DNA of 55,051 nucleotides from Actinomycetota bacterium (GTDB taxonomy: Bacteria > Actinomycetota > Acidimicrobiia > Acidimicrobiales > CADCSY01): positions 1 to 55,051 of the forward strand of contig JAHWJI010000003.1 of NCBI GenBank assembly GCA_019348495.1, read 5' to 3'. Both the position numbers and the translations under genes were made by a program. A model generated the notes under the pieces. It ran no database searches. It was not told where the DNA came from and was given only the letters and a program-made list of their open reading frames with translations. Below, in pieces: positions 11,501-30,792 of this stretch. Numbering within the stretch: the stretch's first letter is position 1; every line of letters starts with the position of its first letter.

Positions 11501-11883
11501 TGGCAACCAAGGACGAGATCCTCGACGCGATCTCGGGCATGACCGTGCTCGAGCTGTCGGAGCTGCTCAAGGCCTTCGAGGAGCGCTTCGAGGTGACGGC
11601 CGCAGCGCCGGCCGCCGTGGCCGCTCCCGGAGGGGGCGGTGCCGAGTCCGCACCGCCGGCCGAGGAGGAGCAGGACGAGTTCGACGTCGTCCTCATCGCC
11701 GCCGGCGAGAAGAAGATCCAGGTCATCAAGGAGGTGCGCTCGCTCACCAGCCTCGGCCTCAAGGAGGCCAAGGATCTGGTCGACGGGGCTCCGAAGGCGG
11801 TGCTCGAGAAGGTGTCCAAGGAGGACGCCGAGAAGGCCCGGGCCGCCCTCGAGGGCGCCGGCGCCGGCGTGGAGGTCAAGTAG
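11497..11883 (+). CDS. rplL: 50S ribosomal protein L7/L12
   Basis: [24 protein letters not shown], Ala/Gly hinge, [23 protein letters not shown]; ATG 11497 or 11500. Confidence 0.95.
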
Positions 11884-27912: not shown

Positions 27913-28749
27913 ATGCCCCTGCGCAAGCGCAAGCCCACCAGCGCCGGTCGTCGGTTCCAGACCGTGGCCGACTTCTCCGAGATCACCAAGGACCACCCCG
28001 AGCGCTCGCTGCTCGCGCCCCGCTCGTCTACGGGCGGGCGCAACAACCACGGCCGCAAGACCGCCCGCCACCGAGGTGGCGGCCACAAGCAGCAGTACCG
28101 CATCATCGACTTCAAGCGGACCAAGGACGGCGTGCCGGCCACGGTGGCGGCCATCGAGTACGACCCCAACCGCAACGCCCGCATCGCCCTGTTGCACTAC
28201 CACGACGGCGAGAAGCGCTACATCCTCGCCCCCGCCCGCGTGGCCGTCGGTGACGTCCTCCGCAGCGGCCAGGGCTCGGACATCCGACCCGGCAACGCCC
28301 TGGCCATGCGCTTCATCCCGGTGGGCACCACCATCCACAACGTCGAGCTCAAGCCCGGGGCCGGCGCCCGCATGGCCCGCAGCGCCGGGGCCAGCGTGCA
28401 GCTCGTGGCCAAGGAGGGCGACTTCGTCACCCTGCGCCTGCCCAGCACGGAGATGCGTCGGGTCCCCATCGACTGCCGAGCCACCGTCGGCGAGGTGGGC
28501 AACGCCGAGGCCGAGTTGGTCTCCATCGGCAAGGCCGGCCGCAACCGCTGGAAGGGCGTCCGGCCCCAGACCCGGGGCGTGGCCATGAACCCCGTCGACC
28601 ACCCGCTCGGCGGTGGTGAGGGCAAGACCTCCGGTGGGCGCCACCCGGTGTCGCCGTGGGGCAAGCCTGAAGGCCGCACCCGGTCGGGCAAGAAGGATTC
28701 CGACAAGATGATCGTCCGTCGTCGCCGCACCCGCGGTGCCCGACGCTAG
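27913..28749 (+). CDS. rplB: 50S ribosomal protein L2
   Basis: [13 protein letters not shown]...[26 protein letters not shown]. Confidence 0.96.
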
Positions 28750-28761
28750 GAGGGGGGCCAC

Positions 28762-29040
28762 ATGCCGCGCAGCCTGAAGAAGGGCCCGTTCGTCGACGAC
28801 CACCTGCTCAAGAAGGTCGACGACCTGAACAGCCAGAGGGAGAAGCGGGTCGTCAAGACCTGGTCCCGGCGCTCCACGGTCATCCCCGAGATGGTCGGCC
28901 ACACCATTGCCGTCCACGACGGACGCAAGCACGTGCCCGTCTACATCACCGAGTCGATGGTCGGTCACAAGCTCGGGGAGTTCGCACCGACGCGGACGTT
29001 CCGCTTCCACGCCGGCCAAGAGCGTGGCGGAAGGCGCTGA
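28762..29040 (+). CDS. rpsS: 30S ribosomal protein S19
   Basis: [19 protein letters not shown]...[17 protein letters not shown]. Confidence 0.96.
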
Positions 29041-29041
29041 G

Positions 29042-29875
29042 ATGACGGCGACCTACAACGCTCGGCCGGGTCAGCCGGCAGGGACAGTGGCGCGCGTGCG
29101 CTACGTGCGCATGTCAGCCACCAAGGCGCGTGCGGTGCTGGACCTCATCCGTGGGGCCGAGGTGGCGACCGCCGGGGAGACGCTGCGGTTCTGCGAGCGC
29201 GACGCCGCCGCGGTCGTGGCCAAGCTACTGCGCTCGGCCATCGCCAACGCCGAGCACAACGACGACCAGATTGCCGACGACCTCGTGGTGTCAGCCTGCT
29301 GGGCCGACGAAGGCCGCACCATCCGCCGCTTCCGTCCCCGTGCCCGGGGCCGTGCCACCCGCATCCGCAAGCGCACCTGCCACATCACCATCGTGGTCAG
29401 TCGCATGACCGAGGAGCAGCTCGAGCGTCGGCGCAACCGCCAGGCGGCCCGCCCCGCCACCCGCGCCTCCCGCCGCGCCGGCCAGGAAGCCGCTGAAGAG
29501 CGCACTCCGAGCCGCACCCGCCGGCGCCGCACCAAGGGCCGCGGCGGGGCCGCGGCAACCACGCCGGCAGCACCCACGCCCTCACCCAGCGAGCGGGCTC
29601 AGCCCGAACCCGGGCAGCCCGACCCCGACGAGCAGCAGCTCGAAGCCGGGAAGTCCGAACAGCCAGAAGCAGCCGAGGCGACATCGACCCAAGGTCCCCA
29701 ACCAGAGCAAGAGCCCGAAGCAACCCAAGACGACGGCTTGGGCCTGTTCGATGCGCCTGAGGAGACGGAGCCAGAAGTGACCCGAGCAGCGCAACCAACG
29801 TCAGACACTCCGCCGAAGGCGGACGCTGATCCAGGGGCTCCCCAACAGAAGCCTGAAGGAACAGGGGGAGCCTGA
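29042..29875 (+). CDS. rplV: 50S ribosomal protein L22 with about 150-aa C-terminal low-complexity extension
   Basis: [22 protein letters not shown]...[22 protein letters not shown] core. The frame stays open for 277 aa to a TGA 2 nt before the rpsC ATG. Confidence 0.88.
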
Positions 29876-29877
29876 CC

Positions 29878-30792
29878 ATGGGACACAAGGTCAACCCCTA
29901 CGGGTTCCGCCTGGGGATCACCACCGACTGGAAGTCGCGTTGGTTCTCCGACCGGGAGTACCGGGACTACCTGATCGAGGACTGGCACGTCCGGGACTAT
30001 CTGATGACCCAGTTGCCACATGCGGCCATCAGCCGGGTGGAGATCGAACGTACCCGGGACCGCCTCCGCGTCGACGTCCACACCGCCCGCCCCGGCATCG
30101 TGATCGGCCGGCGGGGCAGCGAGGCCGACCGGCTCAGGACCGGCCTGGCCAAGATCACCGGCAACAACCGGATCCAGCTCAACATCCAGGAGATCAAGCA
30201 GCCCGAGCTCGACGCCGCCCTCATCGCCCAGGGGGTGGCCGACCAGCTCGCCGGCCGCGTCAACTTCCGTCGAGCCATGAAACGGGCCGTGCAGAACGCC
30301 CAGAAGGCGGGCGTCCCCGGCATCCGGGTCCAGTGCTCGGGCCGCTTGAACGGCGCCGAGATGAGCCGCACGGAGTGGTACCGGGAAGGTCGCGTCCCCC
30401 TGCACACCTTGCGGGCAGACATCGACTACGGCTTTCGGGAGGCCCGCACCACCTACGGTCGCATCGGCGTCAAGGTGTGGATCTACAAGGGTGACATCCT
30501 GCCCTACAAGACCTCGGGCGACGACAAGGCGACGCGTGAGGCAGCCATGGCGGTGGGCGAGACGTCGGGCGCACCCCGACCCCGTCGGGTGGTGTCCGCT
30601 GGCGGCGGTCGCCGCCGGCCCGAGGAGGGCGAGGTGACCACGCCCGGCACCGGCGACAAGGGTGAGACCGAGCCCATCATCAAGGAGGCCGATCCCGAGC
30701 TCGAGCGCCTCTTGGCCGAGGAGGAGGAGATCGAGCGCCTCACCCGCGAGCACCACGAGACGCCCCACTTCCGACCCGGCGAGGGTGACTAG
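29878..30792 (+). CDS. rpsC: 30S ribosomal protein S3 (extended C-terminus)
   Basis: [23 protein letters not shown]...; 304 aa. Confidence 0.94.

What the first reader, a model, noticed from the sequence alone, without database searches (positions are those of the whole stretch)
29417..29875. L22 carries a roughly 150-aa basic-then-acidic tail with atypical codons and a DDGLGLFD motif
After the conserved L22 core (…CHITIVVSR) the frame stays open for about 150 more residues. These comprise an Arg-rich block ([17 protein letters not shown]...[11 protein letters not shown]) and then a Pro/Glu/Gln-rich acidic block. The TGA lies 2 nt before the rpsC ATG, so operon spacing is preserved. From about 29640 the codons are unusually A-ending (CAA, GAA, CCA, GCA, ACA, TCA, GGA) for this genome. 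Within the acidic block, [13 protein letters not shown] (29729-29752) resembles the (D/E)-rich ...GFGLFD C-terminal peptide of archaeal and eukaryotic P-stalk proteins that recruits translational GTPases. C-terminally extended L22 is known in some actinobacteria (for example mycobacteria). Any function for this motif is speculation.
Basis: partly seen in the sequence, partly recalled or inferred. Interest (0 to 1): 0.55.

Follow-up and report, generated by a model that had tools for sequence, protein, structure and literature searches.

The report
Ribosomal L22 tail with conserved peptide
Ribosomal protein L22 of this uncultured Acidimicrobiales bacterium really does carry a 157-residue tail: a known type of RNA-binding basic arm, then a floppy acidic string holding a short peptide that its relatives have kept, probably a docking site whose partner is unknown.

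Summary
rplV (29042-29875) encodes a 277-aa uL22. The Pfam core is aa 17-120. An Arg-rich segment (aa 121-166) aligns with the solved C-terminal extensions of Mycobacterium and Cutibacterium uL22. An acidic Pro/Glu/Gln-rich segment (aa 167-277) is predicted disordered. The TGA lies 2 nt before the rpsC ATG.

The A-ending codon bias is real and extreme: 26 of 69 codons against 4.7 expected. No genuine coding stretch elsewhere in the genome matches it. Some relatives share it, and the acidic tail of S3 does not.

DDGLGLFD is not a chance low-complexity string. It holds the only aromatic residue in the tail. It sits in an 18-residue block that is nearly invariant in four close relatives while the flanks diverge: dN/dS is about 0-0.23 for a window around the motif and 0.3-0.8 for the flanks. 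A G-[LI]-F core is kept in 20 of 29 sequences of the genus-level clade.

Sister genera instead carry 1-4 copies of a GIVDQQ-type motif at the same place. This weakens the P-stalk analogy. So do the motif's internal position, the attachment of L22 near the tunnel exit, a normal bL12 gene in the window, and the lack of any Pfam match.

Best reading: a tethered short linear docking motif with an unknown partner. This is a new variant of the known extended actinobacterial uL22. The scan has noted other L22 tails on other DNA, but not this motif.

The parts
29042..29875 (+). rplV CDS (uL22, 277 aa) including the TGA stop. The start lies 1 nt after the rpsS stop, and the stop lies 2 nt before the rpsC ATG.
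29090..29401 (+). Conserved uL22 globular core plus tunnel loop (aa 17-120).
   Evidence: Pfam PF00237, E 4.8e-36. PDB uL22 hits at E about 1e-29. AF2 pLDDT mostly 77-95, dipping to about 62 over aa 91-110. dN/dS 0.04-0.08.
29402..29539 (+). Arg-rich basic extension (aa 121-166, net charge +10). Two helices are predicted at aa 124-136 and 141-154.
   Evidence: It aligns with the extensions of M. smegmatis, M. tuberculosis and C. acnes uL22. It has many invariant Arg residues in the genus alignment. AF2 predicts the helices. dN/dS 0.06-0.26.
29540..29872 (+). Acidic Pro/Glu/Gln/Ala-rich disordered region (aa 167-277, net charge -17).
   Evidence: AF2 pLDDT about 40 with no secondary structure. 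No PDB or Pfam match. Indel-rich, with mean column identity 0.33. dN/dS 0.3-0.8.
29729..29782 (+). Conserved short linear motif block (aa 230-247), starting with DDGLGLFD. It contains the only aromatic residue of the tail.
   Evidence: 18 residues with a single substitution (L to H in P0004) in four close relatives at dS about 0.45-0.75. The G-[LI]-F core is present in 20 of 29 clade members. The motif occurs nowhere else in the genome.
29801..29824 (+). Second conserved island (aa 254-261, the ..TPPKA.. type).
   Evidence: Column identity is 0.61-0.80 at P257, P258 and A260, against 0.33 for the region as a whole. It is also present in several short-tail relatives that lack the G-L-F motif.
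29852..29872 (+). Conserved C-terminus (aa 271-277) in the closest relatives. More distant relatives end in an acidic ..EEER or ..EEEK instead.
29642..29872 (+). Stretch of A-ending, T-poor codons (aa 201-277): GC3 0.56, A3 0.34.
   Evidence: The predicted mRNA structure is weaker than in all 27 neighbouring windows and than in 100 recodings with genome codon usage.

Best explanation
rplV encodes a full-length uL22 whose C-terminus has three layers.

1. A two-helix, Arg-rich segment (aa 121-166). It is homologous to the solvent-side extension seen on Cutibacterium and Mycobacterium ribosomes. It most likely lies on 23S rRNA next to the globular domain and anchors what follows (inferred from homology).
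2. A spacer of about 60-65 residues that is acidic, Pro/Glu/Gln-rich and intrinsically disordered. Only its composition and length range are constrained.
3. A short linear motif (aa 230-247: an acidic run, then G-L-G-L-F-D, then an acidic Pro/Glu stretch). Smaller conserved islands follow at aa 254-261 and at the C-terminus.

The most likely mode of action is a flexible tether. It would display an acidic peptide with a Leu-Phe anchor on the solvent face of the 50S near the tunnel exit, where it could capture a partner that has a basic rim and a hydrophobic pocket. Physically this is the same kind of interaction as other acidic-hydrophobic tail peptides make.

Shown here: the gene, the domain layout, the predicted disorder, purifying selection on the motif, and its clade-wide retention. 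Inferred: that the motif is a docking site. The partner is unknown.

The A-ending codon bias of the last 77 codons is real but not explained. It lowers predicted mRNA structure ahead of the coupled rpsC start.
For: Gene and core.

Basic segment: it is alignable to the solved extended uL22 chains 5o60_T (query aa 15-159), 8crx_r (10-144) and 5v7q_S (13-184). PMC10085706 describes a 43-aa solvent-exposed uL22 C-terminal extension in C. acnes.

Structure prediction: AF2 with a 29-sequence alignment gives helices at aa 124-136 and 141-154, and pLDDT about 40 from aa 164 onward.

Selection: dN/dS is 0.04-0.08 for the core, 0.06-0.26 for the basic segment, 0.31-0.79 for the acidic spacer, and 0-0.25 for an 18-codon window around the motif (aa 226-243). 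These values come from pairs with dS about 0.3-0.76.

Conservation:
- The 18-residue block at aa 230-247 has a single substitution (L to H in P0004) in four relatives whose flanks carry many substitutions and indels.
- In 121 homologues, every aromatic residue of the acidic tails lies in a G-x-F context with acidic flanks, and tails without the motif have no aromatic residue at all.
- On a tree of core plus basic region, the G-L-F motif is present in early and crown branches of the 29-member clade (support 0.998). It is missing only in one 8-member short-tail subclade and in one sequence with a degenerate G-I-A version.
- It is present in 5 of the 6 species representatives of the genus whose L22 was found, counting the window's own genome.

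SLiM-like behaviour: the distance of the motif from the anchor and from the C-terminus varies, and sister genera carry 1-4 copies of a related G-I-V-D-Q-Q motif at the same place. This fits a position-independent motif that may act through multiple copies.

Uniqueness: both motifs occur only in L22 in the genomes searched.
Against: No partner has been identified, and there is no experimental evidence that the tail is present on mature ribosomes.

One subclade of the same genus, and a whole neighbouring clade, do without the motif. It is therefore dispensable for core ribosome function.

The sequences are related, so counts across them overstate independence.

A conserved hydrophobic dipeptide in an acidic tail could equally well contact the ribosome itself, or the protein's own basic arm.

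All sequences come from metagenome assemblies of uncultured organisms.
Confidence: 0.5

Rival explanations
1. The acidic tail acts in cis or through bulk properties, not by recruiting a partner. It could balance the charge of the Arg-rich arm and shield it before assembly, as a self-chaperone. It could also act as an acidic 'bristle' that keeps ribosomes soluble or apart. In this reading the Leu-Phe motif contacts the protein's own basic arm or the ribosome surface.
For: The tail runs from basic to acidic, with net charge +10 followed by -17. The spacer keeps its composition, not its sequence, with dN/dS 0.3-0.8 and many indels. Acidic tails without either motif exist in related clades and in other families of the order. 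S3 of the same operon also has a long charged tail.
Against: A bulk-property role does not explain why an 18-residue block is kept almost invariant. It does not explain why the only aromatic residue always sits in the same G-x-F context. It does not explain why sister genera multiply a defined motif up to four times.
Confidence: 0.27
2. The motif is a bacterial analogue of the archaeal and eukaryotic P-stalk C-terminal peptide, and it recruits translational GTPases (EF-Tu, EF-G, IF2).
For: In the window's clade the local resemblance is real: an acidic run, then (G/M)-x-G-L-F-D, compared with the eukaryotic SDDDMGFGLFD peptide quoted in PMC2632931 and PMC3280276. The motif sits on a long disordered acidic linker. 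The multi-copy versions in sister genera recall the multi-copy stalk.
Against: The motif is internal, 40 residues from the C-terminus, whereas the P-stalk peptide is the extreme C-terminus (PMC3280276, abstract). By established ribosome structure, and the solvent-side extension described in PMC10085706, uL22 sits at the tunnel-exit side, far from the GTPase centre. The tail matches no Pfam family even at E up to 10. A canonical bL12 gene is present in the window at about 11680-11880. The family-wide and apparently older form of the motif is G-I-V-D-Q-Q, with no Leu-Phe.
Confidence: 0.06
3. The tail beyond the basic arm is a neutral low-complexity expansion. The motif looks conserved only because the sequences share recent ancestry.
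For: The spacer is indel-rich and weakly constrained. Tail length varies from about 83 to 181 residues within the clade. One subclade has lost the motif. The atypical codon usage could mark a fast-turnover sequence.
Against: A window around the motif has dN/dS of 0-0.25 at dS about 0.3-0.6, while the adjacent spacer has 0.3-0.8 in the same pairs. The G-L-F core persists between sequences whose L22 is only 59-70% identical overall and whose acidic regions otherwise average 0.33 column identity.
Confidence: 0.1
4. The long frame is an artefact: an assembly frameshift or an untranslated region that happens to stay open in a 72% GC genome. On this reading the mature L22 is of core length.
For: Long open frames are common by chance in high-GC DNA (one search lists many). 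The last 77 codons lack the usual GC3 signature of coding sequence.
Against: The same frame is conserved at the protein level in independent assemblies from NCBI, JGI and ENA, with dN/dS below 1 throughout. The stop stays 2 nt before rpsC in the window and in three related assemblies. A core-length L22 would leave a gap of about 470 nt inside a tightly packed operon.
Confidence: 0.03

Closest known systems
C-terminally extended uL22 of Actinomycetota (M. smegmatis 5o60 chain T, M. tuberculosis 5v7q chain S, Cutibacterium acnes 8crx chain r; PMC10085706)
   Same: The core is the same, and a basic extension follows directly after the last strand. The extension is alignable through query aa 144-184. 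It is solvent-exposed and borders 23S rRNA helices in the C. acnes structure.
   Different: Those extensions are about 43-85 residues long, and none of them aligns past query aa 184. Here the basic arm is followed by about 110 acidic disordered residues carrying conserved short motifs. No solved chain or Pfam family matches that part.
C-terminal peptide of the archaeal and eukaryotic ribosomal P-stalk (P1/P2/P0, SDDDMGFGLFD)
   Same: An acidic disordered linker ends in an acidic run followed by a G-x-G-L-F-D type hydrophobic anchor. It would likely bind in the same physical way, with acidic residues against a basic rim and Leu-Phe in a pocket.
   Different: The protein family is different, with no Pfam match. 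The site on the ribosome is different. The motif is internal, not C-terminal. The family-wide consensus is G-I-V-D-Q-Q. bL12 is present. Binding to GTPases is untested.
Other acidic tail peptides with a terminal hydrophobic anchor in bacteria, such as the SSB C-terminal tip (..DDDIPF) and the beta-clamp-binding motif (QL[SD]LF). Both motifs are quoted from my own knowledge.
   Same: They follow the same short-linear-motif logic: a disordered tail, acidic context, and a Leu/Ile-Phe anchor.
   Different: The SSB tip is the extreme C-terminus. The clamp motif needs a leading Gln, but the corresponding position here is D, G, N, E or A. Neither motif is associated with the ribosome.

Membership tests
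uL22 (Ribosomal_L22, PF00237) | Match to the family profile above its curated cut-off | tested here: met
   123.5 bits against a cut-off of 28, covering aa 17-120 and profile positions 1-104 of 104. There are 56 PDB uL22 sequences with E of 1e-6 or better.
uL22 (Ribosomal_L22, PF00237) | Position in the S10 operon between rpsS and rpsC | tested here: met
   S19 lies at 28762-29040 and S3 at 29878-30792. The order is the same in relative L044.
Actinobacterial C-terminally extended uL22 | A basic extension directly after the core, homologous to that of solved actinobacterial ribosomes | tested here: met
   phmmer alignments run to query aa 159 (5o60_T), 144 (8crx_r) and 184 (5v7q_S). AF2 predicts two helices at aa 124-154.
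Actinobacterial C-terminally extended uL22 | The extension contacts 23S rRNA on the solvent side | not testable with these tools
   Inferred only from the C. acnes structure description in PMC10085706.
P-stalk proteins (P1/P2/aP1, Ribosomal_60s) | Sequence membership in the P1/P2 family | tested here: not met
   The tail alone (157 aa and 87 aa queries) matches no Pfam family at E up to 10. The whole protein matches only PF00237.
P-stalk proteins (P1/P2/aP1, Ribosomal_60s) | The conserved hydrophobic peptide forms the extreme C-terminus | tested here: not met
   The motif is at aa 230-237 of 277, and 40 residues follow it. In relatives 16-45 residues follow.
P-stalk proteins (P1/P2/aP1, Ribosomal_60s) | An acidic linker followed by a G-x-G-L-F-(D/G) type peptide | tested here: inconclusive
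   Met locally in the window's clade. The related motif in the rest of the family is G-I-V-D-Q-Q, without Leu-Phe.
P-stalk proteins (P1/P2/aP1, Ribosomal_60s) | Binds translational GTPases | not testable with these tools
   This needs a binding assay with cognate EF-Tu, EF-G and IF2.
Beta-clamp-binding motif (QL[SD]LF) | A conserved Gln at the first motif position | tested here: not met
   The equivalent position is G, D, N, E, A or H across the clade.

The most novel reading that the evidence does not exclude
Acidimicrobiales ribosomes carry, on uL22, a tethered factor-recruiting peptide. It is G-L-F-D in this genus and occurs as 1-4 G-I-V-D-Q-Q copies in sister genera. It would work like the P-stalk or bL12 principle, fishing for a soluble partner with a flexible acidic arm, but from the tunnel-exit face of the 50S. 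The likely partner would be a nascent-chain processing, targeting or quality-control factor. This would be a second, lineage-specific recruitment arm on a bacterial ribosome.
Probability: 0.3. Interest if true: 0.75.

Novelty: new variant of a known kind. Interest (0 to 1): 0.42.

Why it matters
Extra arms on bacterial ribosomal proteins are usually written off as filler. Here a disordered tail on an essential protein beside the tunnel exit holds a peptide under clear purifying selection, and neighbouring genera hold a related motif in several copies. If it docks a partner, it would show that bacterial ribosomes can evolve lineage-specific recruitment sites from short linear motifs, as eukaryotic ribosomes do. 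It would also give a simple handle, a 20-residue peptide, for finding ribosome-associated factors in a large, uncultured actinobacterial order. The extreme local codon bias is a separate small puzzle about what shapes synonymous sites in high-GC genomes.

Tried and rejected
1. Complex prediction (collected). I submitted EF-Tu, EF-G residues 1-405 and L22 residues 212-262, each with an alignment. The verdict was 'no answer' (score 0.00, controls not run). I do not use this for or against binding.

2. Region-restricted homologue search with aa 205-277. It found only the four closest L22 relatives and no other protein family with this tail.

3. Genome-wide search of G000 for the motif in an acidic context, and a pattern search for G-I-V-D-Q-Q in five relatives. 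Only L22 matched, so no second carrier points to a shared partner.

4. PDB and Pfam searches with the tail alone: nothing.

5. Rfam scan of 28700-30200 at E up to 1, and a promoter/terminator consensus scan of 29000-30100. There was no RNA family and no promoter-like site that could explain the A-rich codons.

6. Literature string searches for the motifs. No paper mentions them in a bacterial L22. The two unrelated hits are a soybean phosphoproteomics paper and a clam/sea-urchin ribonucleotide reductase paper.

7. The idea that the acidic tail's codon bias merely reflects acidic or disordered composition. I rejected it because the S3 tail has normal usage (GC3 0.88, A3 0.04) and because the bias holds within synonymous families.

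8. Beta-clamp or SSB-tip identity of the motif. I rejected it on motif definition.

9. The 'sunset domain' idea for the tail of relative L025. Pfam does not support it.

Full report
**What is there.** The window comes from contig C95 of a 2.2-Mb, 72% GC metagenome-assembled genome. Its closest named relatives are Acidimicrobiales/Acidimicrobiia MAGs. In the S10 operon, rpsS (28762-29040) is followed by an ORF that starts at ATG 29042 and ends at TGA 29873-29875. The rpsC ATG is at 29878. The ORF translates to 277 residues. Pfam Ribosomal_L22 covers residues 17-120 at E 4.8e-36, which leaves a 157-residue tail. Residues 121-166 carry 16 Lys+Arg (net charge +10). Residues 167-277 carry 23 Asp+Glu, 20 Pro and 12 Gln (net charge -17) and only five hydrophobic residues. 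DDGLGLFD is residues 230-237, nt 29729-29752.

**The basic part is a known feature.** A phmmer search of the PDB aligns the query well beyond the core. It reaches residue 159 with M. smegmatis uL22 (5o60_T, 153 aa), residue 144 with C. acnes (8crx_r) and residue 184 with M. tuberculosis (5v7q_S, 197 aa). [quoted passage not shown] AlphaFold2 with a 29-sequence alignment predicts two helices at 124-136 and 141-154. Confidence falls from about 89 to about 55 across them, and everything from residue 164 onward has pLDDT about 40 with no secondary structure. In the genus alignment many Arg residues of this segment are invariant, and its dN/dS is 0.06-0.26.

**The acidic part is new, disordered and mostly weakly constrained.** The tail alone matches nothing in the PDB at E up to 10 and no Pfam family at E up to 10. 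Four close relatives were recovered with their DNA from independent NCBI, JGI and ENA assemblies (P0002-P0005, 69-97% identical overall). In these the acidic spacer is full of substitutions and indels. Its dN/dS is 0.31-0.79, against 0.04-0.08 for the core in the same pairs. Among the 20 motif-bearing sequences of the 29-sequence clade alignment, mean column identity is 0.87 in the core, 0.72 in the basic arm and 0.33 in the acidic region.

**The motif is an island of conservation.**
- Within this drifting spacer, the 18 residues 230-247 are identical in the window, P0002, P0003 and P0005, and carry a single substitution (L to H) in P0004.
- A block around the motif has dN/dS of 0-0.25 at dS about 0.3-0.6.
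- Across the 120 best database homologues plus the query, every aromatic residue in the acidic tails sits in the same context: an acidic run, a small or hydrophobic residue, then G-[LI]-F and more acidic residues. Examples are G-L-G-L-F, N-L-G-L-F, D-M-G-L-F, G-L-N-L-F, A-L-G-I-F and E-L-G-I-F. Tails that lack the motif contain no aromatic residue at all.
- On a tree of core plus basic arm, the motif occurs in early-branching and crown members of a 29-sequence clade (support 0.998). It is missing only in one 8-member subclade with short tails and in one sequence with a degenerate G-I-A version.
- Among GTDB species representatives of the window's genus whose L22 was found, five of six have the motif, counting the window's own genome.
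- A second island (T-P-P-K/Q/E-A, residues 256-260) and the C-terminus are also conserved.
- The motif occurs nowhere else in the window's genome in an acidic context.

**The family context changes the reading.** The large sister group of L22 sequences from the same family does not have G-L-F. It has a 16-residue motif built around G-I-V-D-Q-Q (with variants such as G-V-V-D-A-T and G-I-V-D-V-D) in 1-4 copies per tail: 78 of 121 sequences. This form is also found in the two earliest-branching sequences of the midpoint-rooted tree, so it is probably the older state. Intermediates exist, for example G-I-F-Q-E-S and G-I-A-Q-E-S in the earliest branch of the window's clade. The window's motif therefore looks like a lineage-specific variant of a general 'acidic, Gly, two hydrophobic residues, acidic' motif. 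In five relatives the G-I-V-D-Q-Q pattern occurs only in rplV. Another neighbouring clade has neither motif and ends in a conserved acidic terminus. Elsewhere in the family and order the same position carries His/Asp repeats, or a folded DUF4332/helix-hairpin-helix-like domain. The C-terminus of uL22 is evidently a permissive platform that different lineages have decorated differently.

**P-stalk analogy.** The local likeness to the eukaryotic SDDDMGFGLFD peptide (quoted in PMC2632931 and PMC3280276) is real in this clade. The defining features of the P-stalk are not met:
- There is no family match.
- The peptide is internal, not terminal.
- uL22 lies on the tunnel-exit side of the subunit, not at the GTPase centre (established structure; solvent-side extension).
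- A standard bL12 gene is present in the window.
- The wider family motif lacks the Leu-Phe pair.

I therefore rate GTPase recruitment at about 6%. The physical mode of binding may still be similar: acidic residues against a basic rim, with Leu-Phe in a pocket.

**Most likely mechanism.** The layout is a conserved anchor, then a spacer of variable length, then a short invariant peptide. The peptide's distance from both ends varies, and in sister genera it is multiplied. This is the usual signature of a short linear docking motif on a flexible tether. I commit to that reading at about 50%, with an unknown partner that is more likely a factor acting at the solvent or tunnel-exit face than a GTPase. 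The main rival, at about 27%, is an in-cis or bulk role: charge balancing or shielding of the Arg-rich arm, or an acidic bristle, with the hydrophobic pair contacting the protein itself or the ribosome. Neutral expansion (about 10%) and artefact (about 3%) are disfavoured by the selection data and by the independent assemblies.

**Codon anomaly.**
- Residues 201-277 have GC3 0.56 and A3 0.34. The L22 core and five neighbouring ribosomal genes have GC3 0.88-0.93 and A3 0.02-0.05.
- Within synonymous families, 26 of 69 codons end in A against 4.7 expected, P about 1.5e-13.
- Genome-wide, only out-of-frame 5' extensions of ORFs reach this value.
- The bias is mainly C-to-A at third positions. The stretch is strongly T-poor, with AT skew up to 0.75.
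- The bias is shared by the four close relatives (A3 0.25-0.30) and by three more distant same-genus genomes (0.21-0.39). It is absent in two others whose genes have GC3 about 0.97.
- The acidic tail of S3 has normal usage, so composition alone is not the cause.
- The native sequence is predicted to fold less stably (-0.335 kcal/mol per nt) than all 27 neighbouring windows (-0.435 +/- 0.048) and than 100 recodings with genome codon usage (-0.449 +/- 0.027). This fits selection for an open mRNA ahead of the coupled rpsC start, but it would follow from any drop in GC. No Rfam family or promoter-like site lies there. The cause stays open.

**Caveats.**
- All data come from MAGs and metagenome contigs.
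- Related sequences are not independent.
- The tree is midpoint-rooted on a short protein.
- MAFFT misplaced the motif in two sequences (P0016, P0029), so the column identities for G-L-F are underestimates.
- Two genomes in the relatives panel (G002, G014) are flagged unpublished. I left them out of alignments A2 and A3.
- The single complex-prediction job gave no verdict and is listed only under things tried.

Noticed in passing
window 30523-30789 (rpsC aa 216-304): S3 also carries a charged C-terminal tail of about 89 residues. Its last 35 or so residues are nearly identical in a relative from another genus of the same family (seen in locus L018). Unlike the L22 tail it has normal codon usage (GC3 0.88, A3 0.04).
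   Followed up: partly
loci L011, L014, L015, L016, L023 (relatives G011, G022, G024, G015, G018) and proteins P0042, P0051: In several genera of the same family the acidic L22 tail contains runs of His-Asp/His-Glu repeats (H-D-H-D-H-E-G-H type) that look like metal-binding segments. The scan has noted similar His-rich L22 arms on other DNA.
   Followed up: no
locus L020 (G028), L22 ORF tail, reference L020:1117-1896:-: In one genome of the same order the L22 tail ends in a folded domain that matches Pfam DUF4332 (24.1 bits, cut-off 23.2) with weak helix-hairpin-helix similarity. Another genome (L025) has a C-terminal segment that looks like a folded domain, with no Pfam match.
   Followed up: partly
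proteins P0041-P0121 (sister genera) and loci L009, L010, L012, L013, L017: A 16-residue motif centred on G-I-V-D-Q-Q occurs in 1-4 copies in L22 tails of most of the family. It was found only in rplV in the five genomes searched. It is undescribed in the paper library.
   Followed up: partly
window 29642-29872: This is the most A3-rich genuine coding stretch in the 2.2-Mb genome. It is strongly T-poor (AT skew 0.6-0.75), and its predicted mRNA structure is weaker than that of any neighbouring 231-nt window. The cause is unknown.
   Followed up: yes
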